A stretch of DNA of 64,000 nucleotides from an uncultured Gammaproteobacteria bacterium. GTDB taxonomy: Bacteria > Patescibacteriota > Patescibacteriia > UBA1558 > S5-K13. The notes beneath the pieces were generated by a model. That model did no database searches. It was given only the letters and a program-made list of their open reading frames with translations, and was not told the origin of the DNA. This document shows, piece by piece, positions 2,916-37,300 of the stretch (the first letter of the stretch is position 1; each line of letters starts with the position of its first letter). The position numbers were made by a program, and so were the translations under genes. Location of the stretch: positions 70,102 to 134,101 of the forward strand of contig CAYRHT010000001.1 in assembly GCA_964424195.1 (NCBI GenBank). The letters run 5' to 3'.

Positions 2916-5900
2916 TTATTTACTCATCTTAGCTAATAATTCTTCAGCTTCGGCTAACTTTTTCTTTTCTTGTTCTACTATTTCAGTAGGAGCATTGTCT
3001 ACGAACTTTTCATTATTTAATTTATTCTCTAGGGACTTGATATATGATCTTAAATTAGCGATTTCTTTCTCATTAGATTTTTTAATATCTACATTTAGAT
3101 ATATTTTAATGTTTGGTAGATGAATTTTAGTATTTAACTTTTCTCCTGTTCTTAGATTTTTAACTCGAGCTAATTTTTCAATAATAGGTGATTGAGTATT
3201 AATTAATTTATCATATTTTTTACTAATAATTAAACATTCGATGAATTTTGCAGGATCAATTTTGTTTTCGTTCTTAAATTTTCTAATCTCAGCAATAATG
3301 TTTTTAATTATTTGAAACTCTTCTTGAGTTTTTTTATCTTCTTTGTATTTTTTAAGTTCTGGCCATCTTTGAATTAACAATAAATCTGTTTTAAAGTTTT
3401 TCCAGATCACTTCAGTGATGTAAGGAGTGAAAGGATGCCAGAGTTTAAGTAAGTTTTGAAGGATGTAGAGTAAAATTTCATCTTTGTCTCCTTCAACTTT
3501 AGCTATTTCTAAATACCAATCAGCTAATTTATTCCAAGTGAAGTCATATAGTTCTTCGCCAGCTGGAGAGAATTGGAATTTATCAATCTTATCAGTAATC
3601 CCAAAAGTAATTTTATCTAACTCATCTAAAATCCATTTATCAGCCAAAGTTTTAACTTTAGGTTTCTTTTCTATTAATTTAACTTCTTCAACGCTAGTTA
3701 ATATATATCTAGATATATTCCAAAGCTTGTTTACGAAGTTTCGATAACCAGCAATTTTTTCATCATAAAGTTTTACATCATTTCCAGGAGTAGAACCAAC
3801 TATCATAGAAAGTCTTAGAGCATCAGCTCCGTAATCTTTAATCATTTCTAGAGGATCAATACCATTACCTAAAGACTTTGACATCTTTCGTCCTTGTTTA
3901 TCTCTTACTAATCCATGTAAATATACGGTATCAAATGGTTTTTCATTTAAAGCATAGGTAGTCATTAAGATCATTCGAGCTACCCAGAAGAAGAGAATAT
4001 CATAACCAGTTTCCATTACAGAATTAGGGTGGAATTCTTTTAAATCTTTAGTTTTGTCTGGTCCACCAAGAGTACTGAAAGTCCATAAACCAGAAGAAAA
4101 CCAAGTATCTAGAGTGTCAGGATCTTGTTTTAATTCTTTGAGTTTATAATGATTGTCAGGAATATCAAAACTTATTGGTTTATCAAAACTAGTTTTATAT
4201 TCTGAAAGTTCAAGAGGACTTTCATTAACCATTAAGCTTCTAATATATCTTATTAAAGTACCATGACAAACTATTAAAATTTTCTTTCCTTTATTATTTT
4301 TAAGAGTTTCTTCTAGAAATATTTCAATTCTCTTTAAAACTTCAGCTGGACTCTCTTCTGAATCACCAGGAATATCATAATTTAATTTGTCTTTTGAATA
4401 ACCAGGATGTTGTTTTTTAAATTTTTCATCTTTTTTAACCCCTTCAAATTCTCCAAATCCTTTTTCAACTAATAGTTTATTTGTTTCTAAAGGTAATTTA
4501 AGGTTTTCGTTTAATATTTCAGCAGTTTGTTTAGCTCTTTTTAGAGGAGAACTTATTATTAAATCATAATTCTCTTTTTTAATTTTTGGTATTAAATCTT
4601 TGATAGCTTGAGTATTCATTTCGTCTAGAGGAGTGTCTTTTTTACCTTGGATTATTTTTTCTTTATTCCAATCAGTTATTCCATGTCTCATGAAAGAAAG
4701 CTTGGTAATATCTTTAGGAACAATTATTTCATCACCTTTATACCAAACTGGAATTCGATGTCCAAACCAAATTTGACGAGAAATACACCAATCTCTAAGA
4801 TTATCCATCCATTGGAAGTAAGTTTTATTAAATCGATCAGGAATAATTTCAATTTCTTTCTTTTTAACTACTTCGGAGGCTAATTGTTTCAGTGTTTTAT
4901 TCTTTCTTTTCTTAATTGGCTTATTTACATTTACAAACCATTGTTCAGAAGGAAGTGGTTCAATTGGAGTTCCACAACGATAGCAAACCGAGAGGTTATG
5001 AACATAATTTTCATCAATCTTTTCAACTAAGCCTTTAGATTTTAATATTTCTACTACTTTTTTACGAGCTTCTTTAACTGGTAAACCAGCTAAATCTCCA
5101 GCAGCTTCAGTCATCTGACCTTCTTTGTTAATAATTTCTTCAATTTTTAAATTATATTTTTGAGCTAATTCATAATCTATCATGGAATGAGCGGGAGTAA
5201 TTGTCATAGCACCAGTTCCCATTTCCATATCTGCAGACATATCAGCAATTACTTGAGTTTTAATTTTTCCGTCTATCCATTCTACTTCAAATTCTTTACC
5301 AACGATATCTTTATATCTCTTATCTTGAGGATGAACAATTATTACTTTATCAGAAAACTTTGTTTCCGGACGAGCTGTTCCAATAACTACTGGACCATAT
5401 TTAAAGTAATAAAAAGGTGATGTTTGTTCTTTGTATTCTACTTCATCGTCAGCTAAGGTTGATTGGCAGTGAGGGCACCAATTTACAACTCTTTTGCCTC
5501 GATAGATAAGAGCATCGTTATACATATCTATAAAAACTTTTTGAACTGCTTTAGTTGATCCTTCATCCATGGTATATCTTTCTCGAGACCAGTCTAAAGA
5601 AGAACCCATCTTTTGAAGTTGTTTTTTAATTACTGTTTTAGATTCGTTTACAAACTTGTCAACTTCTTCTAGAAATTTTTCTCTTCCAATTTGATGACGA
5701 TCAATCCCTTGAGCTTTTAATTTTTTATCCACCACAGTTTGAGTAGCAATCGCAGCATGATCCATTCCTGGTAGCCAAAGAGTCTTATCACCTTTCATTC
5801 GATGATATCGAACCATAAGGTCTTGATAGGCAAGCATAGCAGCGTGTCCAATATGGAGCTGTCCAGTTACATTAGGGGGAGGGAGGACAATAGAGAATGT

Positions 5901-6005
5901 TTCTTTATTTCTATTTGGTAAATTGTCAGGGTTAAAATATCCAGAATTTAACCATTCTGAATAAATGTCATCTTCAAATTTTTTAGCTTCGTATGCCTTT
6001 TTCAT
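2916..6005 (-). CDS. valS: Valyl-tRNA synthetase with an inserted histidine-phosphatase-like domain
   Basis: HIGH motif (PNVTGQLHIGHA), KMSKS motif, editing-domain region, WCISRQIWFGHRIPVWY and DTWFSSGLW blocks. At 1029 aa it is about 150 aa longer than typical ValRS. Confidence 0.93.
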   Translation of the reverse strand: MKKAYEAKKFEDDIYSEWLNSGYFNPDNLPNRNKETFSIVLPPPNVTGQLHIGHAAMLAYQDLMVRYHRMKGDKTLWLPGMDHAAIATQTVVDKKLKAQGIDRHQIGREKFLEEVDKFVNESKTVIKKQLQKMGSSLDWSRERYTMDEGSTKAVQKVFIDMYNDALIYRGKRVVNWCPHCQSTLADDEVEYKEQTSPFYYFKYGPVVIGTARPETKFSDKVIIVHPQDKRYKDIVGKEFEVEWIDGKIKTQVIADMSADMEMGTGAMTITPAHSMIDYELAQKYNLKIEEIINKEGQMTEAAGDLAGLPVKEARKKVVEILKSKGLVEKIDENYVHNLSVCYRCGTPIEPLPSEQWFVNVNKPIKKRKNKTLKQLASEVVKKKEIEIIPDRFNKTYFQWMDNLRDWCISRQIWFGHRIPVWYKGDEIIVPKDITKLSFMRHGITDWNKEKIIQGKKDTPLDEMNTQAIKDLIPKIKKENYDLIISSPLKRAKQTAEILNENLKLPLETNKLLVEKGFGEFEGVKKDEKFKKQHPGYSKDKLNYDIPGDSEESPAEVLKRIEIFLEETLKNNKGKKILIVCHGTLIRYIRSLMVNESPLELSEYKTSFDKPISFDIPDNHYKLKELKQDPDTLDTWFSSGLWTFSTLGGPDKTKDLKEFHPNSVMETGYDILFFWVARMILMTTYALNEKPFDTVYLHGLVRDKQGRKMSKSLGNGIDPLEMIKDYGADALRLSMIVGSTPGNDVKLYDEKIAGYRNFVNKLWNISRYILTSVEEVKLIEKKPKVKTLADKWILDELDKITFGITDKIDKFQFSPAGEELYDFTWNKLADWYLEIAKVEGDKDEILLYILQNLLKLWHPFTPYITEVIWKNFKTDLLLIQRWPELKKYKEDKKTQEEFQIIKNIIAEIRKFKNENKIDPAKFIECLIISKKYDKLINTQSPIIEKLARVKNLRTGEKLNTKIHLPNIKIYLNVDIKKSNEKEIANLRSYIKSLENKLNNEKFVDNAPTEIVEQEKKKLAEAEELLAKMSK
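4161..4712 (-). other. Histidine phosphatase (phosphoglycerate-mutase superfamily)-like domain inserted inside valS, about aa 432-615
   Basis: FMRHGITDWN (the RHG motif) and a downstream ILIVCHGTLIR (second catalytic His), about 180 aa, sit between the ValRS blocks WFGHRIPVWY and DPDTLDTWFSSGLW. Confidence 0.6.
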
Positions 6006-10404: not shown

Positions 10405-11469
10405 ATGAAAACAATAAATCCAAAAGAATTTTCAAAATCTAAGACAAACCTAGCTGGAGATCTTTTACGTAATAGTAAAACTTCAGAAGAAGAAAAATAT
10501 AAAGCTTTAACAGTTTTAAGTAATTGGCGAGCCTCTCATAGCTATCCAATGCATGTCTTTAAAAAAAGATTAAAACGAGTTTCCGAAAAGATAGATAAAA
10601 ATTCATTATCCGCTCAAAGATTAAAACGAGTCCCCTCAATCATTAAAAAGTTGAATAGGAGATATAAAAACAATAAAGCAACAATGAAGCTTACTCAAAT
10701 GCAGGATATAGCTGGTTGTAGAGTTATAATGTCTAATATCAAATTAGCACGTGAACTTTATGAAGAGTCTTATATTAAAGGAGATTTAAAACATAAAAAA
10801 GTAAATGAGAAAGATTATATTTCTAAGCCTAAAAATGACGGTTACAGAAGTATTCACTTAGTTTATAGGTATTTAAGTGATAAAGGAAAAAAAGAATATA
10901 ATGGATTATTAGTTGAAATACAAATTAGATCAAAATTACAACACATTTGGGCTACGGCAGTTGAAACGGTTGGTTTTTTTACAGGACAAGCAATAAAATC
11001 AAATGAAGGGGAAAAGGAATGGAATGATTTTTTTAAATTAGTAAGTTCAGCTTTTGCTAAAATGGAGAAATGTCCAATTATATTAGGAACGCCTGATGAT
11101 GAAAAAGAATTATATTCTCTTATAAAAGAAAAAGAAAGAGAATTAAATGTAATTACTAAAATGGAGAGTTGGACTGAATCCATGAAGTTTATTGATAATC
11201 TAAAAAATAAAAAAAATCATCATTTCTTTTTACTTGAATTAGATACTATTCAAGAAAAATTGACCATTTCTACATATTCAAAAAGGCAAGAAGAAAAAGC
11301 AATAAATGCTTATGCTAAAGCAGAAAAAAAAATTTACGGAAGAAAAGAGTATGATGTTGTTTTAGTTGGTGCAGATACTACATCAGACTTAAAAAAAGCA
11401 TATCCTAATTATTTTATGGATACTAAAGAATTTATTAATTATCTCAATAAGATTTTAAATAAATATTAA
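10405..11469 (+). CDS. RelA/SpoT-domain (alarmone synthetase fold) protein with an unknown C-terminal domain of about 160 aa
   Basis: Synthetase-domain motifs DIAGCRVI, GYRSIHLVY and EIQIRSKLQHIWA in the first ~190 aa. No HD hydrolase and no TGS/ACT domains. 354 aa. Confidence 0.75.
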   Translation: MKTINPKEFSKSKTNLAGDLLRNSKTSEEEKYKALTVLSNWRASHSYPMHVFKKRLKRVSEKIDKNSLSAQRLKRVPSIIKKLNRRYKNNKATMKLTQMQDIAGCRVIMSNIKLARELYEESYIKGDLKHKKVNEKDYISKPKNDGYRSIHLVYRYLSDKGKKEYNGLLVEIQIRSKLQHIWATAVETVGFFTGQAIKSNEGEKEWNDFFKLVSSAFAKMEKCPIILGTPDDEKELYSLIKEKERELNVITKMESWTESMKFIDNLKNKKNHHFFLLELDTIQEKLTISTYSKRQEEKAINAYAKAEKKIYGRKEYDVVLVGADTTSDLKKAYPNYFMDTKEFINYLNKILNKY

Positions 11470-11572: not shown

Positions 11573-13708
11573 CTATTTTTTAGGTAGTTCAATTTCCATT
11601 TCAACAATTTTCCATAAATCATTTTCTTTCTTAAAAAAAAGATTGTTTTTCCCTGCTTGATCTATTGTTACGTCTTCACCATCTAAAAAAACTTGAATTT
11701 CACCAACATAGCGAAAATTTGTATCTAGATAATCATAACCTTTTTCAGCTCCTATTAAAAATAATTCTATATCTCTGCCATCTAAATACTCTTCTAATTC
11801 TTCTCTAACTTTTTCAGGATTTTCTTTTAAGGATGCTTGATTTTTCCAAAATTCTTCTCCAACTGATTGATAGAATAATTCTATGTCTCTGTTATTTAGA
11901 GCATCGCTAATAGCTCGAGTAGCCTCTTCTAGCGTTTGATAAGAATTATTTGGGTAATTTGAATTTAATTTACCAGAACCAAGTGGATTGTAACCATTCT
12001 CTACTTCTTCCCCGTCTATATAACCATCACCATCTGAATCAGGATTATTAATATCTGTCCCATAGACAGCTTCATCAGTATCAGATAAGCCATCATTATC
12101 AGTATCTATTGTTACTGCTTCATTTTCAATTTTACTTAAATTTTCATTAGTAATGCCTAGAGATAAACTAGTGAATAAATCCATTAAATTATCCCAGGTC
12201 ACTTCATGTCGTTTACCATTCATATTTACATACCAGATTCGACCATGATCTTCAACTTGTAAAAATAGTTTTCCTAGGTGTTCTTTGCCAAAGTTGTTTA
12301 TTATATTATCGGTTGATAAAGATATTTTATTCAGATTTTCATTGGTAATACCAACAGCTAATCTTTCGAAAAGATTTAGAGCATTAGCAAAAGTAACTTC
12401 ATATTTCTTAGTATCACTAGGATTAACATACCAAACCCGACCATGATCTTCTACGGCTAACAATAATTTACCTTTTAGATCATTAGATAAAATAGTATCT
12501 ATTTCTCCAATTTCGGGTGTAGGTTCAATTTCTATTATTGGTAAATTTATTAGACTATTTATTGTAGATCCAAAATTTTCATCAATTGAGCCATCTGGGT
12601 TAAATTTTATAATAGGGCTTACTATTGGATAAATACTTTTATCATGAACAATACCTCCTCTTAAGACGGCTATTATTTTATCATTTGAGTGCATTTTTAG
12701 ATTATGAATTGCACCATATACATCAATTAGTTTTTCAGCATTAAAACTCTCATCGAGAGAACCATCAACATTTAATCTCACAATGCCAGCTTGTGGAATA
12801 TCATTATGTAAATCAAAAAACCCACCTATTAGTATTTTTCCATCTGATTGAATAGTTATTGTTTCAATCCATTTATTAGTTAGACTCACATTAAAACTTT
12901 CATCAAGAGAACCATCTGAGTTTAGTCTTATAATTTTACCATCACCCATTGAGCCAGTTCCACCAAGTATTATTTTTCCATCTGATTGAACATGTGGAAG
13001 ATAACTGAAATCTTCTGTTTCTTCATAATTAAAACTTTCATCAAGAGAACCATCTGAGTTTATTCTTATAATATAATTTTTAAAAGAATCTCTATCTATC
13101 CAGCTTACTATTATTTTTCCATCTAATTGAAAATATGGGAAACACGCCATACCATTATTTATTGTGGAGTTAAAATTTGTATCAAAGGAGCCATCTGAGT
13201 TTAATCTTGCAATACAATTTTCATCATTTGGACCAACAAAGAATCCGCCCACGATTATTTTTTCATCTGACTGAATATTTAATTTTGTTATAGCACCAGA
13301 AAATCCTTCTCTAGAATTAAAACTTGTGTCAATTGAACCATTTGAATTGAGTCTCACAATCTTACCATGCATATTTTCAATAGTATTATCTGGGCTATCA
13401 TCGACTGATAATAAAATTTTCCCACCTGGTAAAACTATTAGATCATTTACGGAATTAATATCTATACTTGGATTAAATTCTTTATCAAGTGATCCGTCTG
13501 AATTTAATCTCAAAATACCTTTTCGTGCTATATCATTGTATGAAGTAAAAGAACCTCCAACTATTATTTTTCCGTCTGATTGAATGTCCATGGCTTCAAC
13601 ATAATTATCTGCTCCAATTATATCTGTTTCAGCGAAAGATTTATTTATAAAACAAAAAGAAATGAAGATAAGTAATGTAAAAAGTAAAAATACTTTTATT
13701 TTTTTCAT
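11573..13708 (-). CDS. Secreted multi-repeat protein: delta-60-like beta-propeller repeats, a duplicated ~70-aa domain, DxDxDG calcium-loop repeats
   Basis: Signal peptide. At least seven repeats of ...QSDGKIIVGG...I(V/I)RLNSDGSLDESFN... Two copies of L(L/F)L(A/Q)VEDHGR(V/I)WYVN...GITNENL(N/S)KI. TDNDGLSDTDE/DSDGDGYIDGEE loops. Confidence 0.6.
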   Translation of the reverse strand: MKKIKVFLLFTLLIFISFCFINKSFAETDIIGADNYVEAMDIQSDGKIIVGGSFTSYNDIARKGILRLNSDGSLDKEFNPSIDINSVNDLIVLPGGKILLSVDDSPDNTIENMHGKIVRLNSNGSIDTSFNSREGFSGAITKLNIQSDEKIIVGGFFVGPNDENCIARLNSDGSFDTNFNSTINNGMACFPYFQLDGKIIVSWIDRDSFKNYIIRINSDGSLDESFNYEETEDFSYLPHVQSDGKIILGGTGSMGDGKIIRLNSDGSLDESFNVSLTNKWIETITIQSDGKILIGGFFDLHNDIPQAGIVRLNVDGSLDESFNAEKLIDVYGAIHNLKMHSNDKIIAVLRGGIVHDKSIYPIVSPIIKFNPDGSIDENFGSTINSLINLPIIEIEPTPEIGEIDTILSNDLKGKLLLAVEDHGRVWYVNPSDTKKYEVTFANALNLFERLAVGITNENLNKISLSTDNIINNFGKEHLGKLFLQVEDHGRIWYVNMNGKRHEVTWDNLMDLFTSLSLGITNENLSKIENEAVTIDTDNDGLSDTDEAVYGTDINNPDSDGDGYIDGEEVENGYNPLGSGKLNSNYPNNSYQTLEEATRAISDALNNRDIELFYQSVGEEFWKNQASLKENPEKVREELEEYLDGRDIELFLIGAEKGYDYLDTNFRYVGEIQVFLDGEDVTIDQAGKNNLFFKKENDLWKIVEMEIELPKK

Positions 13709-13818: not shown

Positions 13819-13894
13819 TGGAGCGGGTAGGGGGAATCGAACCCCCGTATTCAGCTTGGAAGGCTGACGTAATAAGCCACTATACTATACCCGC
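13819..13894 (-). tRNA. tRNA-Trp (anticodon CCA)
   Basis: Manual cloverleaf: acceptor GCGGGTA/TACCCGC, anticodon stem TCAGC/GCTGA with loop CTTCCAA, T-arm GGGGG-TTCGATT-CCCCC, CCA encoded. Confidence 0.85.
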
Positions 13895-22915: not shown

Positions 22916-23791
22916 TTAAAAAGTCTTTTTTAAGTATTTTTTTAACTCTTTACCAATTTCTTTATGCTCTAAAGCAAAATCAATAGTAGCTTTAATAAAT
23001 TCTAACTTATTACCACAATCATAATATTTTCCATTTTCTATTTCACAAGCATAAAGAGGAACACCTTGTTTTTTTAGAGCATTAATAGCGTCTACTAACC
23101 AGACTTCTCCGCCTTTACCTCTTTTGGTTTTTTCTAAAACTTTAAATATTTCGGGAGGTAAAATATATGCTCCTAATAGAGCTAGGTTTGAAGGAGCGTT
23201 CTTAGGATTTGGTTTCTCTACTATATTCTTTATCTCGTAGACATTATCTTCTATTTTTTTAACATCAGCTACACCATATCTAGCTAAATCTTTCTTGTTT
23301 TTTATTCTTAATCCAGAAATAACCATCCCACCATATTTTTCATAAACTTTAATCATTTGTTTTAGTCTTGGTGGCTGAGAATGAATAAACTCATCGCCCC
23401 AAACAACAGCAAAAGCTTCGTCACCAACTACATCCTTAGCGTTTAAAACTGGAGTACCATTACCGTAAGGACCTTTTTGTCTAATATAAATAAAGTTAGC
23501 TAAATCAGCTATCTTTTTAATTTCTTGTCTTTGTTTATTCTTACCTTGTTTTTTAAGCCAGTTTTGTAATTCATAATTGTAATCAAAATGATCTTCAATG
23601 GCTCTTTTGCTACTGCCAGTAACTATAACCACATCTTTAATACCAGATGCTACCACTTCTTCAACAACATATTGAATGATAGGCTTATCTACTACGGGTA
23701 ACATTTCTTTAGGTTGGGCTTTAGTAGCAGGTAGAAATCTAGTTCCTAATCCAGCTGCCGGGATAACTACTTTTCTAATCTTATTTTTCAT
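22916..23791 (-). CDS. galU: UTP-glucose-1-phosphate uridylyltransferase
   Basis: KVVIPAAGLGTRFLPATKAQPKEMLPVVDKPIIQYVVEE, 291 aa. Confidence 0.85.
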   Translation of the reverse strand: MKNKIRKVVIPAAGLGTRFLPATKAQPKEMLPVVDKPIIQYVVEEVVASGIKDVVIVTGSSKRAIEDHFDYNYELQNWLKKQGKNKQRQEIKKIADLANFIYIRQKGPYGNGTPVLNAKDVVGDEAFAVVWGDEFIHSQPPRLKQMIKVYEKYGGMVISGLRIKNKKDLARYGVADVKKIEDNVYEIKNIVEKPNPKNAPSNLALLGAYILPPEIFKVLEKTKRGKGGEVWLVDAINALKKQGVPLYACEIENGKYYDCGNKLEFIKATIDFALEHKEIGKELKKYLKKTF

Positions 23792-23915: not shown

Positions 23916-24833
23916 ATGAAAAAATTTATATGTCAGGAAAATAAAATTAGGTTAGATAAATTTTTAGTTGAAAGACTAAAGAGTTTGTCGCGTTCTAAAA
24001 TTCAACACCTAATTGAAGATGGGCAAGTAAAAGTTAATTCAGAAATTGTTAATAAAAAACACCATTGGTTGGATGAGAAGGATAAAGTTGAGATATTACT
24101 TGCACCTTCGGGTCCCGTTGCTAAGAAAAAAGCCTCTTGTTTTAAAAAAGATATTAAAGTCGTCAAGAAAGCTAAAGATTATGTAGTTATAGAAAAGCCT
24201 TCTGGTTTGATTGTTCATGGAACTAAAGAAATTCACGAATATTCTCTAGCTGATTGGTTGATTAAAAAATATCCTCAGATTAAAAAAGTAGGAGATGATA
24301 TTGAATTCAGACCAGGCATAGTTCATCGTTTGGATAAGAAAGTTTCTGGTCTAATGGTTGTAGCTTTAAATCAAGAATCTTTTGAAAACTTAAAAGAACA
24401 GTTTAAAGACCGGAGTGTAACTAAAAAATATTTAGCTTTAGTTCATGATCAGATGGAAGAGTATGATGGAAAAGTAGATTTTCCAATTGAGCGTTCTAAG
24501 AGAAGTGGTAAAATGGTAGCTAAGCCAAAGCATTTTGATGAAAAAGAAGCTTTAACTCTTTGGGAGACTAAAGAAAAATTTGCTCATCATACTTTATTAG
24601 ATGTTCAAATTAAAACTGGAAGAAATCATCAGATTAGAGCCCATATGCAAGCTATTAATCATCCAGTTGTTGGTGATGATTTGTATAATATTAAAGGGAA
24701 TAAGGATAAATTTAATTTAAAAAGAGTTTTTTTACACGCTTATCGTTTAGAGTTTAGAGATTTGAATGGTGAATTACAAAAATTTGAAATAGATTTGCCA
24801 GAAGATTTAAAAAATGTAATTGAAGAACTATGA
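23916..24833 (+). CDS. RluA-family 23S rRNA pseudouridine synthase (RluD-like)
   Basis: N-terminal S4 domain (IRLDKFLVERL) and catalytic HRLDKKVSGLMVVA, 305 aa. Confidence 0.85.
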   Translation: MKKFICQENKIRLDKFLVERLKSLSRSKIQHLIEDGQVKVNSEIVNKKHHWLDEKDKVEILLAPSGPVAKKKASCFKKDIKVVKKAKDYVVIEKPSGLIVHGTKEIHEYSLADWLIKKYPQIKKVGDDIEFRPGIVHRLDKKVSGLMVVALNQESFENLKEQFKDRSVTKKYLALVHDQMEEYDGKVDFPIERSKRSGKMVAKPKHFDEKEALTLWETKEKFAHHTLLDVQIKTGRNHQIRAHMQAINHPVVGDDLYNIKGNKDKFNLKRVFLHAYRLEFRDLNGELQKFEIDLPEDLKNVIEEL

Positions 24834-26058: not shown

Positions 26059-26135
26059 GCATCCGTAGCTCAACTGGATAGAGTGTCTGGCTTCGGACCA
26101 GAAGGTTGCAGGTTCGAATCCTGCCGGGTGTACCA
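26059..26135 (+). tRNA. tRNA-Arg (anticodon TCG)
   Basis: Manual cloverleaf: acceptor GCATCCG/CGGGTGT (two G-U pairs), anticodon loop CTTCGGA, T-loop TTCGAAT, CCA encoded. Confidence 0.85.
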
Positions 26136-26160: not shown

Positions 26161-26236
26161 GCGCCGTTAGCTCAGTTGGTAGAGCAGTTGCCTCTTAAGC
26201 AAATGGTCGCAGGTTCAAATCCTGCACGGCGTACCA
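26161..26236 (+). tRNA. tRNA-Lys (anticodon CTT)
   Basis: Manual cloverleaf: acceptor GCGCCGT/ACGGCGT, anticodon loop CTCTTAA, T-loop TTCAAAT, CCA encoded. Confidence 0.85.
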
Positions 26237-27772: not shown

Positions 27773-30700
27773 ATGGATTTAGCATATAATCATCAAGATA
27801 TAGAGCCGAAATGGCAAAAAAAATGGGAAGATTCTCATGTTTTTAGAGCTAATGATAAATCTAAAAAAGAAAAAAAATATGTTTTAGATATGTTTCCTTA
27901 TCCTTCTGGAGCTGGATTACATGTTGGTCATCCCGAAGGCTATACAGCTACTGATATTTATTCTCGTTATTTAAGAATGAAGGGCTATGAAGTAATTCAT
28001 CCTTTAGGATGGGATGCTTTTGGTTTGCCTGCTGAAAACTATGCAATTAAGATTGGAGTTCATCCTCAAAAGAGCACTCAAGAAAATATTGCTAATTTTA
28101 CTAAACAAATAAAGAGTTTAGGTTTTTCCTATGATTGGGAAAGAGAAATAAATACTTCTGATCCAAGTTACTACAAGTGGTCTCAATGGTTTTTCTTACT
28201 CTTATACAAAAATAACTTAGCCTATCAGAAAAAAGCCCCAGTTAATTGGTGTGAATCTTGTCAGACTGTTTTAGCCAATGAACAAGTAGTCGATGGAAAA
28301 TGTGAGCGTTGTCAGAGTGAAGTTATTCAAAAAGATTTAAAACAATGGTTTTTTAAGGTAACTGAATATGCTGATGAGTTAATTAATGGTTTAGATAAAT
28401 TAGAATGGTCTCATGCTTTGAAAACTATGCAAAAAAATTGGATTGGAAAGTCAGAAGGAGCTGAAATTGATTTTCAAATTAAATCTACAAAATTAAAAGT
28501 CACAGAGTTTAAGAAAATATATTTTGCAACAGGGAATAAATCTAAATTAAAAAGATTACAAAAATTATTTAAAAAAATTAACCCCAAAATTAAAATTGAA
28601 CAAGTTCCTGATTATGTGGATGTAGTAGAAGATGGAAAAGATGCTTGGGAAAATTCATTAAAGAAAGCAAAGCCTTATCAAGGAAAATATGATCTACCAG
28701 TTTTGTCTATGGACACTGCTGTTTTCTTTAGTAATGAAGATAAGGTTGATCCTTTAGCTCCTAAAAGGTCTTGTTTAGGGGGAGTTGATGAAAAAGATTT
28801 AAGCCAAGAAGAAATTGCAGAAAAAGCCTTAGAATTTTACAAAAGCATTGCTCAGAAAAATGGTGGAGAAAAAGAATTCTATTATGAAGATTTCTGGACA
28901 ATTTTGTATCCTAATGGAGAATATCAACAAAGTAAAAATAGGAGAGAATATATTTTAACTGATCAGGAAGCTGGTGATTTAGATATCTATTTCCCAATGA
29001 AAAATTTATATTATTCAAAAGTTAGCGGAAAGAGATTTTTTGAAAATACTAATGAAGATTATTTTAAAGAATTTGCATCTCAGATTAATGCTTTGAAAGA
29101 ATTGGTTTTAGCAAAGACTATTAAAGTTTTTACAACTCGACCAGATACTTTGTATGGAGCAACGTATATGGTTTTAGCTCCGGAACATAAATTAGTTCAA
29201 GATTTAAAGAGTCAAATTGAGAATTTTGATGAAGTAGAAAAATATATTGAAACTACTAAGAAAAAAAGTGACTTAGAAAGAACAGATTTGAATAAAAATA
29301 AGAGTGGAGTGGAATTAAAAGGTTTAAAAGCTATTAATCCAGTTAATAATCAAGAATTACCAGTATATATTTCTGATTATGTTTTAGCTAGCTATGGAAC
29401 GGGAGCAATTATGTGTGTGCCAGCTCATGATCAGCGAGATTTTGAATTTGCTCAGAAATTTAAGCTACCAATTATTGATGTAGTTAAATCTGAACGAAAA
29501 ACTAAAGTTTTAATTGTTCATGGATTTATGGCAAATAGTAAGAGTGATTGGTTTCCGTGGCTTAAAAAAGAATTAGAGCAAAAGAATTACGAAGTTGTAA
29601 CTCCTGATATGCCAAATACAGAGCATCCAATTCGAAAAGATTGGCTAAAGAGTTTGGAGACTATAATTAATGATTTTACAGAAAATGATATTGTTATTGG
29701 TCATAGTATGGGAGCTTTTGCAGCTCAATATTTAGCTCAAAAAACTAAAATTAATAAATTATTTTTGATTGCTCCGGTTTCTGAATTCATGGTTAATGAT
29801 GAAACTAGAGTAGAGAGTATTAAAAATACTTTTACAGAAGAACAGATAGAAATATTAAGAAAGTTTACAGATTATAAATTAGATTATCAGAGTATTAATG
29901 CCAATGTAGAGAAAATTTATGCTTATTTCTCAGACGATGATCCATATACCTCTACTAAACAGCAAGAACAATTAACAAAAAAATTACCAGGTAAATATAT
30001 GGTTTTGAATAAAAAAGGTCATATTAATGTTAGTGATAGTAGAACCAGTGTTTCAGAATTACCAGAAATTATTCCAGACATCGAAGAAAAGATTAGAGCT
30101 ACAGAAGCTAATGGTTTAATGGAGAATTCCGAAGAATTCAGTGGTATGGACTCTGAAAAAGCCAAGAAAAAAATTACTAAAAAAGCTGACGGTGAATTAA
30201 CTACTCAATACAAGATTAGAGACTGGTTAGTTTCTCGACAAAGATATTGGGGAGCTCCAATTCCAATTATTCATTGTTCTAAATGTGGTTCAATTCCGGT
30301 TCCAGAAAAAGACTTACCAGTTCTTTTACCTAATGATGTAAAAGATTTTAGACCAACTGGACAACCACCACTAGCTTCATCCAAAGAATTTAATAAAAAT
30401 GTAAAATGCCCTAAATGTGGAGCTAATGCTACTCGAGAACATGATACTATGGATGGTTTTGTGGATAATTCTTGGTACTATTATCGTTATTTAGATCCTA
30501 AAAATGAAAAGGAATTTTGTTCTAAGAAATTAATTAAAGAATGGATGCCTGTAGAAACCTATGTAGGTGGAACTGAACATGCTGTTGGTCATTTAATCTA
30601 TTCTAGATTTTTTACTAAAGTTTTAAGGGATAATGGTTACTTAAAATTTGATGAACCATTTTTAAAATTAATTAATCAAGGATTAATTTTAGGAACTGAT

Positions 30701-31378
30701 GGACAAAAGATGAGTAAGAGTTTAGGAAATGTGGTAAATCCTGATGAAGTAGTTAAAGAATATGGAGCTGATAGTTTTAGAATGTATGAAATGTTTATGG
30801 GTCCTTTAGAAGATTCTAAACCTTGGAATACGGATGGCATTAAAGGTTTAAGAAGGTTTTTAGACAAGAATTGGAATTATTTTTCAAATATTAGTTATGG
30901 AGAAGACTCTAATAATCAAGTAAATTCAAGTTTGCATAAAACTATTAAAAAAGTTAGTGAAGATATTCAAAACTTTAGATTTAATACAGCTATTAGTTCT
31001 CTAATGGTTTGTTTTAAAGAGGTTAATTCTTTAACCAATCCTCGGCCGGAGTTAATAAATCCATATTTAATTATGCTTTCTACTCTAGCTCCTCATATTG
31101 GAGAGGAGATTTGGAGTAAGTTAGGAAATAAAGGGTTTATTTGTCAGCAAGAATGGCCTCAGTATGACGAGAAGTTAATTGTTGAAGATAAAATAAATTT
31201 ACCAATTCAAATCAATGGAAAATTACGAGCTACTCTAGAAATAGAAGTAGATATTTCTGAAGATGCTTTGAAAAAACAGATTTTAGAATTAGAAAATTTA
31301 AATAAATATATTGAAGGTAAGGAAATTATTAAATTTATTTATATTAAGAATAAAATTGTTAATATTGTTATAAAATAA
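27773..31378 (+). CDS. leuS: Leucyl-tRNA synthetase with two inserted enzyme-like domains
   Basis: HVGH (HIGH) motif, TTRPDT, HDQRDFEFA, RDWLVSRQRYWGAPIP, KMSKS (QKMSKSLGN). At 1201 aa it is about 350 aa longer than bacterial LeuRS. Confidence 0.93.
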   Translation: MDLAYNHQDIEPKWQKKWEDSHVFRANDKSKKEKKYVLDMFPYPSGAGLHVGHPEGYTATDIYSRYLRMKGYEVIHPLGWDAFGLPAENYAIKIGVHPQKSTQENIANFTKQIKSLGFSYDWEREINTSDPSYYKWSQWFFLLLYKNNLAYQKKAPVNWCESCQTVLANEQVVDGKCERCQSEVIQKDLKQWFFKVTEYADELINGLDKLEWSHALKTMQKNWIGKSEGAEIDFQIKSTKLKVTEFKKIYFATGNKSKLKRLQKLFKKINPKIKIEQVPDYVDVVEDGKDAWENSLKKAKPYQGKYDLPVLSMDTAVFFSNEDKVDPLAPKRSCLGGVDEKDLSQEEIAEKALEFYKSIAQKNGGEKEFYYEDFWTILYPNGEYQQSKNRREYILTDQEAGDLDIYFPMKNLYYSKVSGKRFFENTNEDYFKEFASQINALKELVLAKTIKVFTTRPDTLYGATYMVLAPEHKLVQDLKSQIENFDEVEKYIETTKKKSDLERTDLNKNKSGVELKGLKAINPVNNQELPVYISDYVLASYGTGAIMCVPAHDQRDFEFAQKFKLPIIDVVKSERKTKVLIVHGFMANSKSDWFPWLKKELEQKNYEVVTPDMPNTEHPIRKDWLKSLETIINDFTENDIVIGHSMGAFAAQYLAQKTKINKLFLIAPVSEFMVNDETRVESIKNTFTEEQIEILRKFTDYKLDYQSINANVEKIYAYFSDDDPYTSTKQQEQLTKKLPGKYMVLNKKGHINVSDSRTSVSELPEIIPDIEEKIRATEANGLMENSEEFSGMDSEKAKKKITKKADGELTTQYKIRDWLVSRQRYWGAPIPIIHCSKCGSIPVPEKDLPVLLPNDVKDFRPTGQPPLASSKEFNKNVKCPKCGANATREHDTMDGFVDNSWYYYRYLDPKNEKEFCSKKLIKEWMPVETYVGGTEHAVGHLIYSRFFTKVLRDNGYLKFDEPFLKLINQGLILGTDGQKMSKSLGNVVNPDEVVKEYGADSFRMYEMFMGPLEDSKPWNTDGIKGLRRFLDKNWNYFSNISYGEDSNNQVNSSLHKTIKKVSEDIQNFRFNTAISSLMVCFKEVNSLTNPRPELINPYLIMLSTLAPHIGEEIWSKLGNKGFICQQEWPQYDEKLIVEDKINLPIQINGKLRATLEIEVDISEDALKKQILELENLNKYIEGKEIIKFIYIKNKIVNIVIK
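28478..29119 (+). other. LeuRS insertion 1 (about aa 236-449) with a Ham1/RdgB-like ATGNxxK motif
   Basis: KKIYFATGNKSKLKRLQKLF...DLPVLSMDTAVFF lies between the LeuRS blocks SEGAEIDF and KVFTTRPDT. It resembles the N-terminus of non-canonical NTP pyrophosphatases. This assignment is tentative. Confidence 0.4.
29495..30067 (+). other. LeuRS insertion 2 (about aa 575-765): YdeN/RBBP9-type alpha/beta serine hydrolase domain
   Basis: KVLIVHGFMANSKSDWFPWLKKELE...IVIGHSMGA (GxSxG nucleophile elbow) lies between HDQRDFEFAQKFKLPIIDVV and YKIRDWLVSRQRYWG. Confidence 0.6.
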
Positions 31379-34345: not shown

Positions 34346-37300
34346 ATGACTCTAGCTAAAAACAAAAAGATATTTATTATTACATTTTTAATAGTTTTTT
34401 TATTTACAGCTAGTATTGGGGGTCTTACTTCTAAAAATGTTAAAGCTCAATTATTGCCAATGCCAGTTATAGATTGGACACCAGCAAAAGTAATAGTGGC
34501 AGATATTCCAGCAGAAACTCATTGGTGGGCAGATGTTGTTAGTTGGATCAAAGAAAAGAGTTTTACTAAAATTATAGCAAATGCTTTTAGTAGGACTTTT
34601 CAAAGGTATATGGAAACTTTGGCATATAATAGTGCTAGTTTTTTAGCAGGAGGTATTGAGGGTGGAAAAAGTGCTTGGAGTACTGATAATTGGAATTCAT
34701 ATATGGTGGATGCTAGGGATGCTGCTACAGCTGAATTTTTGGATTCTTTAGCTAGTGGTTATGATTTTGATATTTGTAAACCACCTGGTGGAATTAATAT
34801 CCAAAATAAAGTTAATTTGATTATATCAACTAATGAGGATAAAAGAGAACCAAGATGTTCTTTGAATGATATAAAAAAGAAATGGGGAGATTTAGGAGAG
34901 AAGCTTCAAAATGATCCTTTGACTTTAATGAAAATAAATAATCAATCTTTGAAAGAATTGGGTTTTGATAAGTTTACTTCTGGTTCAATGCCAACTCTTG
35001 ATGATTTTAATGAAGTTAGAGCTAAACTTTTACAAAGCAGTATTAATATCAAAGAATCAGATTTAGGATATATTCAAGAGGTTGAAAATGAACTTGCCCG
35101 ACAACAACAATTAAAAGAAGAAATGGCGGAAAAGGAAAGAATTAATCCAGACGGTTCAAAACCGAAGAGAAATCCAATAACCGGAGATGTAATTGTTCCA
35201 GCAGAGGTTGCTAAAGGTGACTTAGGAACAGTATGGAATACTTCTAAAGAATCAGCAGCGACTTTAAGTGATGATCCTGTAGTTAATATAGCAAATATAT
35301 TTTTAAATACCTTAGTAAGTAAAAGTTTAAGAGGCTTAATAAATAGATTATTTATTCCAAAGCCTCCTCAATATGATGAAGTTACTGAAGACAGAGGTTT
35401 AATATCTAATTTTAATAGAGAAGTTAATATTGTTGAAAAGACCTTTGCTCAAATTAAAAAGATTTCTTATAACATCAACTTGACTGATATAGATGTGATT
35501 GCTGAAATGGAAATGGATTTAGGTAATGATCTTCCTGGAATAATGAATAATAAGACTATTAGTTCTGATTTTGCTGAAGCTTTAAGAAAAGCTCAAGCTG
35601 GAGAAGTTCTTACTTTAAAAGAAGCTATTGAAGAAAATCTAGTAGATCAGAATAAATGGTTTGGATATATTGATGTAGCTAGTCAAAATCCTAAGCAACC
35701 TAGTGTAGTTGAAGGATTTTCGGCTGATAATATTAAAAAATTAGTTAAGAATAGGGTTGTTTCTGTGGGTTGGCTTTTTGCAGCTGAAAAAATAAAAGAA
35801 CTTAAGGGACAAATAATTAGAGGTTGTAGTTCCCAAGGATGTACCTTAGAAAATGTTTTAGAAGAATATGATAAATCTGGAACTTATAATGTTCTTGAGA
35901 ATGAAGGAGAAGACCCTCAAATTTATAAAAATGAATATTGTGGTTGGCGATCAATTAATGCTGAACCATATTTTATAGATATTAATAATGCTAATGATTG
36001 TGAATTAAATGAAGCTGGTCAGTTTAATGGAATTAGTGGTATAGAATTGAAATGGTCAGGGGCTAGTGATTCTATTTCTGGTAAATGTTACAGATATGAA
36101 GATCTTAATGGCGATAGTATTATTGATGAGATTAGTTTAGAGGCTGAAAATCGAGAAACTTGTGAAACTCTTGAGCCATCATTTGAACCAGAAGTTAATG
36201 GTTTAGGTGGATATTATTATTACGAATGGGAACCAGGTGGATGTCTAATTAAAGAATTAGACGAATCACCTTTATGTCATTTAGTTGATCCAAATACTGT
36301 TTTGAAAGCTCCGGCTCAACAATGTGGAGCAGAAGGTTATTATAGTATCCTAGAAACTAGAAATACTGGTAGTCGTCAGGAAGATTGTGCTGATGTTAAA
36401 CATTGTATTGAAGAAGATGATGATGGAAGATGTGTTGGTGGTTATGATTATTGTGTTAAAGAAGAAAACATTTGGCGTTTTAATGGCGATTCTTGTAGCA
36501 AGCAATTTAATTCTTGTACTACTTTAATTGATGATCAAGGACAACGAGAATCTTACTTAATAGATACTTTAAGAGATTGTCCTCAAGAAGAAGTGGGCTG
36601 TCGGGACTATATTTTTGAAAAAGAACTTATAGATGATCAATATGTTTGGGATAATGATGCTCCAAAAGCTTATTTCAATTCTTCAGTAGAAGAATGTAAT
36701 GACAATGCTTTAGGATGTAATGAATTTATCCAGATTAAACCGGGAGTTAATTTAATAGCTAACGGCAGTTTTGAAATTAATGAGGGACCAGAAGATGAGA
36801 AACCAGATTTTTGGAATTTAAATAATGGGAGGTTTAGTTTAGAAAGAGATGCTTATTTAGGAAACTATTCTTTAAAACATATTGGCGGAAATGAAGATTT
36901 ATTATCAAAAGAAAATCTTTTAATTCCTGATAAAGGTTTATACACTTTAAGTTATTATGTTCGAGCTGAAGATTCAGATGTTCAAGTAAAACCTAAGCTT
37001 TTAGTTGCTAACCAAAATGGTGTAACTATCCCATTGTCTAATGAAGATGCTATATTTAATCCTGGAGAAGTAATTAATAATTGGCAAAGAGTTTCTGGAC
37101 ATTTTTCAATTCCAGAAAATCAAAATGTTATTAGTGTTGATTTAATATTTCAAATTAAAGGTGATGTTTATTTAGACGGTGTTCAATTAGAATTGAATGA
37201 GCTGGTAGATAGTGATCTTAATGAAGGAGAAGGAGATACAACTACTTATCAAGAATATGGACAAGTATCTCAAGCTTATTTTAAAAAAGCTCCAGATTAT

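What the first reader, a model, noticed from the sequence alone, without database searches (positions are those of the whole stretch)
2916..6005. Valyl-tRNA synthetase with an embedded histidine-phosphatase (RHG...HG) domain
Between the ValRS blocks WCISRQIWFGHRIPVWY and DPDTLDTWFSSGLW, where ValRS normally has a short connective segment, sits a ~180-aa domain. It begins FMRHGITDWN, the RHG phosphohistidine catalytic motif of the phosphoglycerate-mutase/histidine-phosphatase superfamily, and ends with ILIVCHGTLIR, the second conserved His. With the LeuRS inserts, both class I synthetases in this window carry whole accessory enzyme domains. This points to a lineage-specific trend of stuffing aaRS genes with extra catalytic modules, which would be economical in a reduced genome.
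Basis: partly seen in the sequence, partly recalled or inferred. Interest (0 to 1): 0.7.

Follow-up and report, generated by a model that had tools for sequence, protein, structure and literature searches.

The report
Valyl-tRNA synthetase carrying a phosphatase domain
This gene encodes an otherwise normal valyl-tRNA synthetase with an intact, selectively maintained histidine-phosphatase enzyme grafted into a surface loop beside its tRNA-end pocket. It is one example of an apparently undescribed habit of Patescibacteria of attaching such phosphatases to enzymes that handle the 3' end of tRNA.

Summary

The insert is not an artefact. The identical protein occurs on at least 23 contigs, and dN/dS of the insert is 0.12.

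It belongs to a family. 51 of the 120 nearest Patescibacteria ValRS carry 1-3 such domains, patchily; relatives 92% identical lack it. Related domains sit at the homologous site of IleRS (1-2 copies) and inside CCA-adding enzymes (14 clusters).

Best reading: an accessory, catalytically active phosphomonoesterase tethered to tRNA-3'-end enzymes. The likeliest job is removing a blocking phosphate from the tRNA 3' end, but the substrate is inferred, not shown. I found no prior description. The "gene economy" interpretation is only partly supported.

The parts
2916..6005 (-). valS ORF, 1029 aa (stop codon included): bifunctional ValRS with an embedded histidine phosphatase
4791..6005 (-). aa 1-405: first half of the Rossmann fold, CP1 editing domain, CP2
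5841..5858 (-). HIGH signature (LHIGHA, aa 50-55)
   Evidence: H51, G53 and H54 are invariant in 91 aligned ValRS.
5184..5219 (-). editing-site motif GTGAMTITPAHS (aa 263-274)
   Evidence: T270, P271, H273 and D277 are invariant in 91 ValRS.
4740..4790 (-). CP2-CP3 linker WCISRQIWFGHRIPVWY (aa 406-422), homologous to the IleRS linker that lines the tRNA 3'-CCA pocket
   Evidence: coordinates; in PMC7955072 the yeast IleRS linker ARDWNVSRNRYWG forms part of the reveromycin A / tRNA CCA-end site.
4701..4739 (-). N-side remnant of the CP3 hairpin (KGDEIIVPKDITK, aa 423-435)
   Evidence: aligns with KGNEMKVQVDSPG of insert-less relatives
4152..4700 (-). inserted His_Phos_1 domain (aa ~436-618)
4680..4688 (-). 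RHG motif: R440, nucleophile H441, G442
   Evidence: His 54/54, Arg 44/54 in embedded domains
4536..4538 (-). R490 (SPLKR), second phosphate-binding Arg
   Evidence: 54/54
4464..4466 (-). E514, proton donor (LLVEKGFGEFEG)
   Evidence: 54/54
4263..4265 (-). H581 (VCHG), second catalytic His
   Evidence: 53/54
4125..4151 (-). C-side remnant of the CP3 hairpin (HYKLKELKQ, aa 619-627)
   Evidence: aligns with KDWIQ of insert-less relatives
4083..4124 (-). DPDTLDTWFSSGLW (aa 628-641), start of the second half of the Rossmann fold
   Evidence: invariant D628...S637
3873..3887 (-). KMSKS signature (aa 707-711)
   Evidence: K707, S709, K710 and S711 invariant
3246..3641 (-). anticodon-binding domain (aa 789-920)
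   Evidence: PF08264, E=7.4e-33
2928..3071 (-). C-terminal tRNA-binding coiled coil (aa 979-1026)
   Evidence: PF10458, E=6e-10; long helices 975-1028

Best explanation
SHOWN. The gene is the orthologous, intact valS of a Komeilibacteria-like member of the Patescibacteria. A complete, catalytically equipped branch-1 histidine phosphatase is inserted in frame at the tip of the CP3 hairpin of the Rossmann fold. This site lies directly after the WCISRQ linker that lines the tRNA CCA-end pocket. The phosphatase is the small PhoE/PspA/CobC-like type, not a mutase. The insert is under purifying selection.

SHOWN. The insert belongs to a recurrent Patescibacteria family of such insertions. The family occurs in ValRS (1-4 copies, at least 3 sub-sites), in IleRS at the homologous site, and in CCA-adding enzymes. 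Gain, loss or allelic replacement between close relatives is frequent.

INFERRED. The protein works as a normal ValRS (synthetic site plus CP1 editing site) with an extra, dispensable active site. That site hydrolyses a phosphomonoester through a phospho-His441 intermediate (R440/R490/H581 bind the phosphate, E514 is the acid).

INFERRED, the committed mechanism. The substrate is a phosphate blocking the tRNA 3' end, that is a 3'(2')-phosphate or a toxin-added pyrophosphate. The tethered phosphatase would restore a chargeable 3'-OH on the tRNA already bound by the enzyme. This is analogous to the HD phosphohydrolase of bacterial CCA-adding enzymes.

Confidence by layer: anatomy and family about 0.95; active phosphatase about 0.8; functional coupling to tRNA handling about 0.55; tRNA 3'-end phosphate as substrate about 0.4.
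For: Identity and integrity.
- valS equivalog score is above cutoff, with HIGH, KMSKS and editing residues intact.
- The core superposes on 1GAX at 2.0 A over 763 residues.
- The gene is syntenic with the insert-less valS of a relative (tig-tsaD-tsaE-valS...rpmF-nusB-rnc-smc).

The domain.
- PF00300 at E=2.9e-37.
- Catalytic residues align to solved enzymes.
- In 54 ValRS-embedded domains they are conserved 54/54, 54/54, 54/54 and 53/54.
- dN/dS of the insert is 0.12 and 0.27, against 0.07 and 0.17 for the core.
- Type-A inserts share their own conserved lid signature.

Not an artefact: the identical protein is on at least 23 contigs, one of 952 kb, and the difference from the insert-less allele is a clean 561-nt in-frame segment.

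Site: CP3 is a known hypervariable subdomain that follows the linker of the CCA pocket.

Host specificity.
- 51 of the 120 nearest ValRS carry the domain.
- Among the best 150 representatives of 1.84e9 proteins, all 15 hosts of at least 579 aa are tRNA-related. These are 8 verified IleRS plus 1 probable, 4 ValRS-like, 1 CCA-adding enzyme and 1 QueC-like protein.
- The CCA-enzyme fusion forms a clade of 14 clusters with intact HD and His_Phos motifs.
- The domain tree indicates at least 3-4 separate recruitments.
- ASCH-like (PUA-like, predicted RNA-binding) modules share the same loop.

Precedent.
- 3'-phosphorylated tRNA ends arise in cells, and the E. coli CCA enzyme's HD domain removes them (PMC6961547).
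- toxSAS pyrophosphorylate the tRNA CCA end, which blocks charging, and hydrolases can reverse it (10.1101/2021.04.30.441581).
- Two of four free-standing homologs lie next to pth or aspS.
Against: - No biochemical data exist, and the substrate is not determined by any test run here.
- The tools gave no coordinates, so I could not measure whether the phosphatase active site can reach the tRNA 3' end.
- The domain enters through its N- and C-terminal strands, so its active site may point away from the ValRS body.
- The lid signatures differ between the ValRS, IleRS and CCA groups, so nothing shows a common substrate.
- Embedded domains are only slightly more basic than free ones (median pI 7.1 vs 5.8, p=0.013).
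- Type-B ValRS inserts lack the first Arg of RHG.
- The insert is dispensable, because relatives 92% identical lack it.
- All host enzymes also share NTP-dependent chemistry that releases PPi, and the QueC-like host acts on a free base. 'tRNA 3' end' is therefore not the only common denominator.
- Other unrelated hydrolases (Ser_hydrolase, Ham1-like) are inserted in LeuRS of the same genome. This is compatible with aaRS loops simply being permissive.
- The neighbouring RelA/SpoT (PDC-S33) gene does not co-occur with the insert elsewhere.
Confidence: 0.45

Rival explanations
1. Passenger enzyme. The phosphatase is an ordinary metabolic or house-cleaning phosphatase whose substrate has nothing to do with tRNA. 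The CP3 loop of an essential, constitutively expressed gene is merely a permissive place to carry it.
For: - CP3 is structurally hypervariable and tolerant.
- The insertion site hosts loops, zinc knuckles and other modules.
- LeuRS of the same genome carries unrelated hydrolase domains.
- The insert is dispensable for close relatives.
- The nearest solved structures are small-metabolite phosphatases: the riboflavin-pathway HFP 9mmh, PspA, PhoE, GpgP and CobC.
- Lid motifs differ between host classes.
Against: - Host range is strikingly narrow. All 15 large hosts of the nearest relatives are tRNA-related, with several separate recruitments.
- Up to 3-4 copies per protein is the opposite of economy.
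- No compensating free-standing copy lies near insert-less valS. Whole genomes could not be checked.
- ASCH-like RNA-binding-type modules are co-inserted.
Confidence: 0.25
2. Product- or nucleotide-directed phosphatase. The domain acts on a small phosphorylated molecule common to the host reactions (PPi, AMP/NMP, or aberrant or inhibitory nucleotides such as aminoacyl-adenylate-like antibiotics). It would either pull NTP-dependent reactions forward or detoxify the active-site neighbourhood.
For: - All hosts (ValRS, IleRS, CCA-adding enzyme, QueC-like PP-loop protein) use NTPs and release PPi (established enzymology; hosts).
- The best NCBIfam hit is the nucleotide-like alpha-ribazole-5'-phosphate phosphatase, though below cutoff.
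- A free-standing homolog pair sits next to an ITP/XTPase gene and aspS.
- LeuRS of the window has a Ham1/XTP-dITPase-like segment.
- Presence/absence variation among strains is typical of resistance or immunity functions.
Against: - Branch-1 histidine phosphatases are phosphomonoesterases or mutases. PPi or adenylate hydrolysis is not a documented activity of this branch (my knowledge, not tested).
- No evidence on the ligand was obtained.
- Tethering gives little kinetic advantage for freely diffusing small molecules.
Confidence: 0.15
3. Non-catalytic module. The domain serves as an extra tRNA-binding or regulatory (phospho-ligand-sensing) surface, with catalysis irrelevant.
For: Type-B ValRS inserts have lost the first Arg of RHG, and one domain of P0205 lacks the second His. 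CP3 and other appended aaRS domains often serve in tRNA binding (general knowledge).
Against: In type A, which includes the window, every catalytic residue is conserved as strictly as in free-standing enzymes. dN/dS is 0.12. The domains are only mildly basic.
Confidence: 0.05
4. Artefact or selfish element: assembly chimera, pseudogene, intein or mobile insertion.
For: Patchy presence among near-identical relatives.
Against: - The identical ORF is on at least 23 contigs from many samples.
- The ORF is uninterrupted.
- The junction is clean, in frame and without repeats.
- There is no endonuclease or splicing motif, and Pfam finds only His_Phos_1 in the insert.
- The insert is under purifying selection.
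- It is modelled confidently as an integral domain.
Confidence: 0.01

Closest known systems
Canonical bacterial ValRS (Thermus thermophilus, PDB 1GAX)
   Different: Where Thermus has a roughly 45-aa zinc-knuckle CP3, and close relatives have an 18-aa hairpin, this protein has a roughly 183-aa enzyme domain.
Small branch-1 histidine phosphatases: PhoE (1H2E), PspA phosphoserine phosphatase (4IJ5), riboflavin-pathway HFP (9MMH), CobC alpha-ribazole phosphatase (6E4B)
   Different: Only 20-27% identical. It reaches none of the NCBIfam equivalog cutoffs: CobC 102.7 against 162.9, PspA 68 against 350, dPGM_arch 52 against 225. It is embedded in another enzyme rather than free-standing, and it has its own conserved lid signature.
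HD phosphohydrolase domain of bacterial CCA-adding enzymes (E. coli Cca; Yakunin et al. 2004, as cited in PMC6961547)
   Same: A phosphatase or phosphodiesterase physically fused to an enzyme that acts on the tRNA 3' end, used to repair 3'-phosphorylated ends. Patescibacterial CCA enzymes carry a His_Phos domain directly after this HD domain.
   Different: The fold and chemistry are unrelated (metal-dependent HD versus phospho-histidine). For the ValRS insert the tRNA substrate is only inferred.
IleRS with an N-acetyltransferase domain (NCBIfam NF040702 ileS_w_GNAT) and other aaRS with accessory domains
   Same: A class Ia synthetase that has acquired an additional catalytic domain, recognised by curators as a distinct architecture (the model is listed).
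   Different: The added domain is different (GNAT versus histidine phosphatase). The window protein scores far below that model (184.7 against 1999).
Bifunctional RNase H / acid phosphatase (NCBIfam NF005567; M. tuberculosis Rv2228c type)
   Same: A CobC-like His_Phos domain fused to a nucleic-acid enzyme. The insert matches the phosphatase half of that model (76.8 bits).
   Different: That is an end-to-end fusion with RNase H, not an insertion into an aaRS, and the score is below the cutoff (326).
Small alarmone hydrolases that reverse tRNA 3'-CCA pyrophosphorylation by toxSAS (Kurata et al., 10.1101/2021.04.30.441581)
   Same: Enzymatic removal of a phosphate group that blocks aminoacylation at the tRNA 3' end. 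This is the activity proposed here.
   Different: The enzyme family is different (RSH HD hydrolases), they are free-standing, and no link to the ValRS insert has been demonstrated.

Membership tests
Valine--tRNA ligase (NCBIfam NF004349 / TIGR00422) | Whole-protein score above the curated equivalog cutoff | tested here: met
   971.8 bits against 704, and 908.3 against 612.1, each in two stretches around the insert
Valine--tRNA ligase (NCBIfam NF004349 / TIGR00422) | Class I signature motifs HIGH and KMSKS | tested here: met
   LHIGHA at aa 50-55 and KMSKS at aa 707-711, invariant across 91 ValRS
Valine--tRNA ligase (NCBIfam NF004349 / TIGR00422) | CP1 editing domain with conserved Thr/His/Asp residues | tested here: met
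Valine--tRNA ligase (NCBIfam NF004349 / TIGR00422) | Overall ValRS fold, including the anticodon-binding domain and C-terminal coiled coil | tested here: met
Valine--tRNA ligase (NCBIfam NF004349 / TIGR00422) | Valine-specific aminoacylation of tRNA(Val) | not testable with these tools
   Inferred from orthology and synteny with insert-less valS
Histidine phosphatase superfamily, branch 1 (Pfam PF00300) | Profile match above the gathering score over most of the domain | tested here: met
   128.7 bits against 21.7, profile positions 3-167 of 194
Histidine phosphatase superfamily, branch 1 (Pfam PF00300) | Catalytic core: RHG nucleophile His, two Arg, second His, Glu proton donor | tested here: met
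   R440, H441, R490, E514 and H581 align with dPGM/PhoE residues and are conserved in embedded homologs
Histidine phosphatase superfamily, branch 1 (Pfam PF00300) | Three-dimensional alpha/beta fold of the family | tested here: met
Histidine phosphatase superfamily, branch 1 (Pfam PF00300) | Phosphatase turnover through a phospho-histidine intermediate | not testable with these tools
   Inferred from residue conservation and dN/dS of 0.12
Cofactor-dependent phosphoglycerate mutase (dPGM) | Score above the NCBIfam cutoffs, and the mutase-type length with C-terminal tail | tested here: not met
   pgm_1 51.4 against 81.7, dPGM_arch 51.9 against 225, GpmB 56 against 261. The domain is about 183 aa and is followed directly by ValRS sequence.
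Alpha-ribazole phosphatase CobC (TIGR03162) | Equivalog cutoff | tested here: not met
   102.7 bits against 162.9
Intein / mobile insertion | Splicing junction residues, a homing endonuclease, or flanking repeats | tested here: not met
   No such Pfam hits. The junction is a clean in-frame 561-nt difference without direct repeats. The insert is under purifying selection as a domain.
tRNA 3'-end healing phosphatases (functional class, not a homology family) | Hydrolysis of 2'/3'-phosphate or pyrophosphate on the tRNA 3' end | not testable with these tools
   Only guilt by association: the hosts are ValRS, IleRS and CCA-adding enzymes

The most novel reading that the evidence does not exclude
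Patescibacteria equip the enzymes that touch the tRNA 3' end (ValRS, IleRS, CCA-adding enzyme) with a further active site that checks and repairs the chemical state of the 3' terminus. This would be a strain-variable, in-cis 'de-blocking' immunity against toxins, phage or host factors that phosphorylate or pyrophosphorylate the CCA end, or against 3'-phosphate ends left by RNases. ValRS would then have three tRNA-end-directed catalytic sites: synthesis, editing and dephosphorylation.
Probability: 0.15. Interest if true: 0.9.

Novelty: new variant of a known kind. Interest (0 to 1): 0.7.

Why it matters
Aminoacyl-tRNA synthetases with additional catalytic domains are well known in eukaryotes but rare in bacteria, and I found no description of a phosphatase inside a synthetase.

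Here the domain is intact and under selection. It has been recruited repeatedly, in 1-4 copies, by ValRS, IleRS and CCA-adding enzymes, and it is variable between near-identical strains. That combination suggests an undescribed accessory activity at the tRNA 3' end (repair or counter-defence) in a huge, poorly understood bacterial radiation.

The idea is directly testable with one recombinant protein plus two controls: a point mutant (H441A) and the natural insert-less allele.

The finding also matters for annotation. Public databases currently label these proteins 'class I tRNA ligase family protein', 'hypothetical protein', or, for fragments, 'alpha-ribazole phosphatase'.

Tried and rejected
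1. The first homolog search, with junction plus insert, suggested the fusion was rare and the window protein absent. The full-length search showed this was an artefact of the candidate limit.
2. The exhaustive search of 50%-identity representatives is not a census, because clustering hides the window's own cluster. It was useful only for host diversity.
3. Link to the neighbouring RelA/SpoT gene at 10405-11469 (PADLOC PDC-S33). The gene is replaced by a Fic gene in the insert-less relative. But no homolog lies near three other insert-bearing valS genes, so I rejected the link as coincidence.
4. Intein or mobile-element reading: rejected.
5. Test for a free-standing His_Phos gene near insert-less valS, or elsewhere in the window: none found.
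6. Charge/pI comparison as a proxy for RNA binding: weak.
7. Search for a lid motif shared by the ValRS, IleRS and CCA inserts: none.
8. Test whether the HD motif is degenerate in CCA fusions, which would indicate replacement: it is intact.
9. Identity of the second inserted module. A profile against PDB sequences gave nothing. Pfam ASCH matched only weakly, 3 of 5 members, best E=9e-6.
10. The GTDB scan did not retrieve the window's own genome; L004 is a different organism.
11. Geometry of the phosphatase site relative to the tRNA could not be obtained, because the tools return no coordinates.
12. Seven literature searches found no prior description. One further search failed on syntax.
Full report
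**1.
- Window 2916-6005 (minus strand) is an uninterrupted 1029-aa ORF.
- NCBIfam valS equivalogs score 971.8 and 908.3 bits (cutoffs 704 and 612). Each is split into two stretches, the first ending near residue 430.
- Pfam adds His_Phos_1 at residues 438-601 (E=2.9e-37, 128.7 bits against 21.7), plus the anticodon-binding and C-terminal ValRS domains.

**2. Both enzymes look intact.**
- HIGH (aa 50-55), KMSKS (707-711) and the editing-site residues T270/P271/H273/D277 are invariant in an alignment of 91 ValRS.
- An AlphaFold2 model built on that alignment is confident throughout: mean pLDDT 92.1, pTM 0.84, insert 89-97.
- Sequence alignment to solved enzymes places R440-H441-G442, N447, R490, E514 and H581 on the catalytic positions.
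- The domain reaches no equivalog cutoff: CobC 102.7 against 162.9, PspA 68 against 350, dPGM models far below. At about 183 aa it lacks the mutase-type extensions. It is therefore a generic small phosphatase, not a phosphoglycerate mutase.

**3. Where it sits.**
- Insert-less close relatives have an 18-aa hairpin-like loop (K.GEIKVQVDNPGKDWIQ). In the window protein the domain lies between KGDEIIVPKDITK and HYKLKELKQ, that is at the tip of that loop.
- At the DNA level the difference from the nearest insert-less allele is a clean in-frame 561 nt. There are no flanking repeats, and both sides are 82-91% identical.
- In IleRS structures this region is the CP3 subdomain. Its topology differs between Thermus (zinc-binding), S. 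aureus and yeast (PMC7191050).
- CP3 follows the 'linker CP2-3' ARDWNVSRNRYWG, homologous to LRDWCISRQIWFG here. That linker forms part of the pocket occupied by the tRNA 3'-CCA end and by reveromycin A (PMC7955072).

**4. Not an artefact, and under selection.**
- The identical protein is encoded on at least 23 contigs (36 index blocks), including a 952-kb contig.
- The gene occupies the same syntenic position as the insert-less valS of a relative (tig-tsaD-tsaE-valS...rpmF-nusB-rnc-smc). It is therefore the ortholog of the housekeeping valS. I infer it is the only copy, because whole genomes could not be read.
- Nei-Gojobori dN/dS of the insert is 0.12 against P0122 and 0.27 against P0128. 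The core values are 0.07 and 0.17.
- The nearest named relatives are Candidatus Komeilibacteria, in the Patescibacteria/Parcubacteria group.

**5. It is one member of a family in ValRS.**
- Of the 120 best ValRS hits, 51 carry 1-3 His_Phos domains.
- In 54 embedded domains the nucleophile His, the second Arg and the Glu are invariant, and the second His is present in 53. The first Arg is replaced in a 'type B' subgroup.
- The CP3 site is an insertion hot spot. It holds short loops, CxxC...CxxC zinc knuckles, His_Phos domains of several sequence types, and a roughly 110-aa module with weak ASCH similarity. The His_Phos domains sit at distinct sub-sites: before the hairpin, at its tip, or inside a zinc knuckle.
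- It also holds stacks of modules. P0205 (1750 aa) has three His_Phos domains plus a Ser_hydrolase.
- A second site about 25 residues downstream is used in P0003 and P0205.
- The distribution on a tree of the ValRS core is patchy, with at least 19 state changes among 120 tips (shuffled tips give 38.8 +/- 2.7).
- The window gene is closer to insert-less P0123 (core dS 0.69, about 92% aa identity) than to insert-bearing P0122 (dS 1.21, about 87%). Yet its insert is 77%, 65% and 47% identical to those of P0122, P0128 and P0130, at the same position.
- The insert-less hairpin is conserved and cannot be regenerated by deletion, and valS is visibly mosaic. I therefore infer allelic replacement by homologous recombination rather than repeated precise deletion. 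This is an inference.

**6. The same domain family is attached to other tRNA enzymes.**
- I searched the insert alone against 1.84 billion representatives (20,546 hits at E<=1e-3) and looked at every host of at least 579 aa among the best 150.
- Eight are IleRS (ileS equivalog 761-857 bits for the complete ones, cutoff 621), with one or two His_Phos domains. One more is a probable IleRS fragment.
  - Most of these domains lie between W.ISR.RYWG.P.P and DCWFESG, the homologous CP3 site.
  - Others lie between DCWFESG and KMSKS, or after KMSKS.
  - One of the IleRS is KKU27225.1 of Ca. Magasanikbacteria.
- Four are ValRS-like. One of these has four tandem domains.
- One is a CCA-adding enzyme (PolyA_pol head, RNA-binding, HD, tRNA_NucTran2_2) with His_Phos at 368-543. 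One is a QueC-like protein with a C-terminal His_Phos.
- The CCA fusion is itself a clade of 14 clusters, 49-61% identical, among insert-less Ca. Dojkabacteria relatives. Both the HD motif and the His_Phos catalytic residues are intact.
- An NJ tree of 299 domains, which has low resolution, separates three groups. These are a CCA clade nested among free proteins, the main ValRS clade, and a mixed IleRS/ValRS/tandem clade. This implies at least 3-4 recruitments.
- The only other architecture seen was one His_Phos+TPR protein of 373 aa. The remaining multi-domain hits are free tandem di-His_Phos proteins.

**7. Mechanism.**
- Shown: an intact ValRS, plus an intact and selected phosphatase domain tethered next to the CCA-pocket linker. 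The association with enzymes that act on the tRNA 3' end is recurrent and host-specific.
- Inferred: the domain is an accessory phosphomonoesterase acting through phospho-H441. Its most likely substrate is a phosphate blocking the tRNA 3' end.
- Precedent:
  - 3'-phosphorylated tRNA ends arise in cells, and the HD domain of the E. coli CCA enzyme removes them (PMC6961547, citing Yakunin 2004).
  - toxSAS toxins pyrophosphorylate the CCA end, which blocks aminoacylation, and hydrolases reverse this (10.1101/2021.04.30.441581).
- Strain-level presence/absence fits an accessory, possibly conflict-related role.
- Weak or neutral tests:
  - Two of four free-standing homologs lie beside pth/RNase E-G/MiaB-like genes, or beside aspS/ITP-XTPase genes.
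  - Embedded domains are slightly more basic than free ones.
  - Type-A inserts have a private conserved lid signature (P534, Y536, K540, I545, Y553).
  - The lids differ between host classes.
  - The adjacent RelA/SpoT PDC-S33 gene does not travel with the insert.
- I could not measure whether the phosphatase site can reach A76.

**8. Rivals.**
- A passenger metabolic phosphatase in a permissive loop (0.25).
- A phosphatase directed at PPi, nucleotides or inhibitors, since all hosts release PPi (0.15).
- A non-catalytic binding module (0.05).
- An artefact or mobile element (0.01).
- The passenger reading is weakened mainly by the narrow host range and the multi-copy arrays. The product-directed reading is weakened by the known chemistry of this branch.

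**9. Comparison and novelty.**
- Membership in ValRS and in His_Phos branch 1 is met on every testable criterion. Membership in dPGM and in CobC is not met.
- The nearest architectural analogues are:
  - IleRS with a GNAT domain (NF040702);
  - the RNase H/CobC fusion (NF005567);
  - the HD domain of CCA enzymes, which is the functional analogue.
- The proteins have been in public databases since 2015 under generic names. Seven full-text searches found no paper describing an aaRS-histidine phosphatase fusion. Subscription-only literature was not searchable.
- I rate it a new variant of a known kind: an accessory catalytic domain on a tRNA enzyme.

The observation and the domain call are right, and the lineage trend is real. 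LeuRS at 27773-31378 scores leuS_bact 1005 bits and contains Ser_hydrolase (E=7e-20) and a Ham1/XTP-dITPase-like segment. The 'economy' rationale is not what the distribution suggests.

Noticed in passing
window 27773-31378 (+): LeuRS of 1201 aa (leuS_bact 1005 bits). It carries an inserted Ser_hydrolase alpha/beta-hydrolase domain (PF06821, aa 579-755, E=7e-20) next to the editing domain, and a partial Ham1 / XTP-dITP diphosphatase-like segment (aa 247-319). The same Ser_hydrolase family is inserted in ValRS P0205.
   Followed up: partly
window 10405-11469 (+): 354-aa RelA_SpoT-domain protein that matches PADLOC candidate defence gene PDC-S33 over its full length (E=2e-119). It is replaced by a Fic-domain gene at the same position in the insert-less relative L003, and it is not found near other insert-bearing valS genes.
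   Followed up: yes
P0248, P0244, P0354/P0392 (KKU27225.1, Ca. Magasanikbacteria), P0361 and others: IleRS proteins with one or two His_Phos_1 domains in the homologous CP3 loop. In P0354 the domain is inside a zinc knuckle. Further copies lie between DCWFESG and KMSKS, or after KMSKS.
   Followed up: partly
P0331, P0402-P0412, P0414, P0417 (relatives named Ca. Dojkabacteria): CCA-adding enzymes with a His_Phos_1 domain inserted directly after an intact HD domain: 14 clusters, nested among insert-less relatives.
   Followed up: partly
P0205 (1750 aa), P0206 (1414 aa), P0242 (1161 aa, truncated): ValRS proteins with stacked inserts. P0205 has three His_Phos domains, an ASCH-like module and a Ser_hydrolase. 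P0242 has four His_Phos domains.
   Followed up: partly
P0175, P0189, P0213, P0180, P0227 (CP3 loop of ValRS): A module of about 110 aa (MGFHE..GKTKTYRL...) with weak ASCH (PUA-like, predicted RNA-binding) similarity: PF04266 in 3 of 5 members, best E=9e-6. It occurs alone or together with His_Phos.
   Followed up: partly
P0004 (Ca. Kuenenbacteria GW2011_GWA2_42_15): It is annotated 'Alpha-ribazole phosphatase' but ends in ...EQDPDTLDTWFSSGLWT, so it is a mis-called fragment of a ValRS-His_Phos fusion. Full-length fusions are named 'class I tRNA ligase family protein' by NCBI.
   Followed up: no
window 2916-6005, compared with P0122-P0137: valS is mosaic among close relatives. For example, residues 201-300 are 84-95% identical to some relatives and 44-50% to others, and residues 761-860 show a different split. 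This suggests frequent intragenic recombination.
   Followed up: partly
window ~23800 (between 22916-23791 - and 23916-24833 +): The cumulative GC-skew minimum and a switch of gene orientation fall at a divergent gene pair: NTP_transferase on one side; RluA-type pseudouridine synthase, NYN-domain protein, guanylate kinase, tRNA-Arg and tRNA-Lys on the other. There is no dnaA nearby.
   Followed up: partly
window 34346-43915 (+), 43922-46831 (+), 11573-13708 (-): Very large ORFs: 3189 aa (only a CBM_4_9 hit), 969 aa (no Pfam hit), and a 711-aa DUF5122 beta-propeller/TSP3-repeat protein. They are probably surface proteins.
   Followed up: no
window 13819-13894 (-), 26059-26135 (+), 26161-26236 (+): tRNA-Gly(TCC), tRNA-Arg(TCG) and tRNA-Lys(CTT) genes all encode their 3' CCA. 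In this organism CCA addition would therefore serve repair rather than maturation.
   Followed up: partly
L073 (context of free-standing homolog P0008) and L069 (P0018): Free-standing His_Phos genes in the neighbourhoods aspS - NTPase_I-T (ITP/XTPase) - His_Phos - His_Phos, and His_Phos - pth - RNase E/G - MiaB-like - class Ib aaRS.
   Followed up: no
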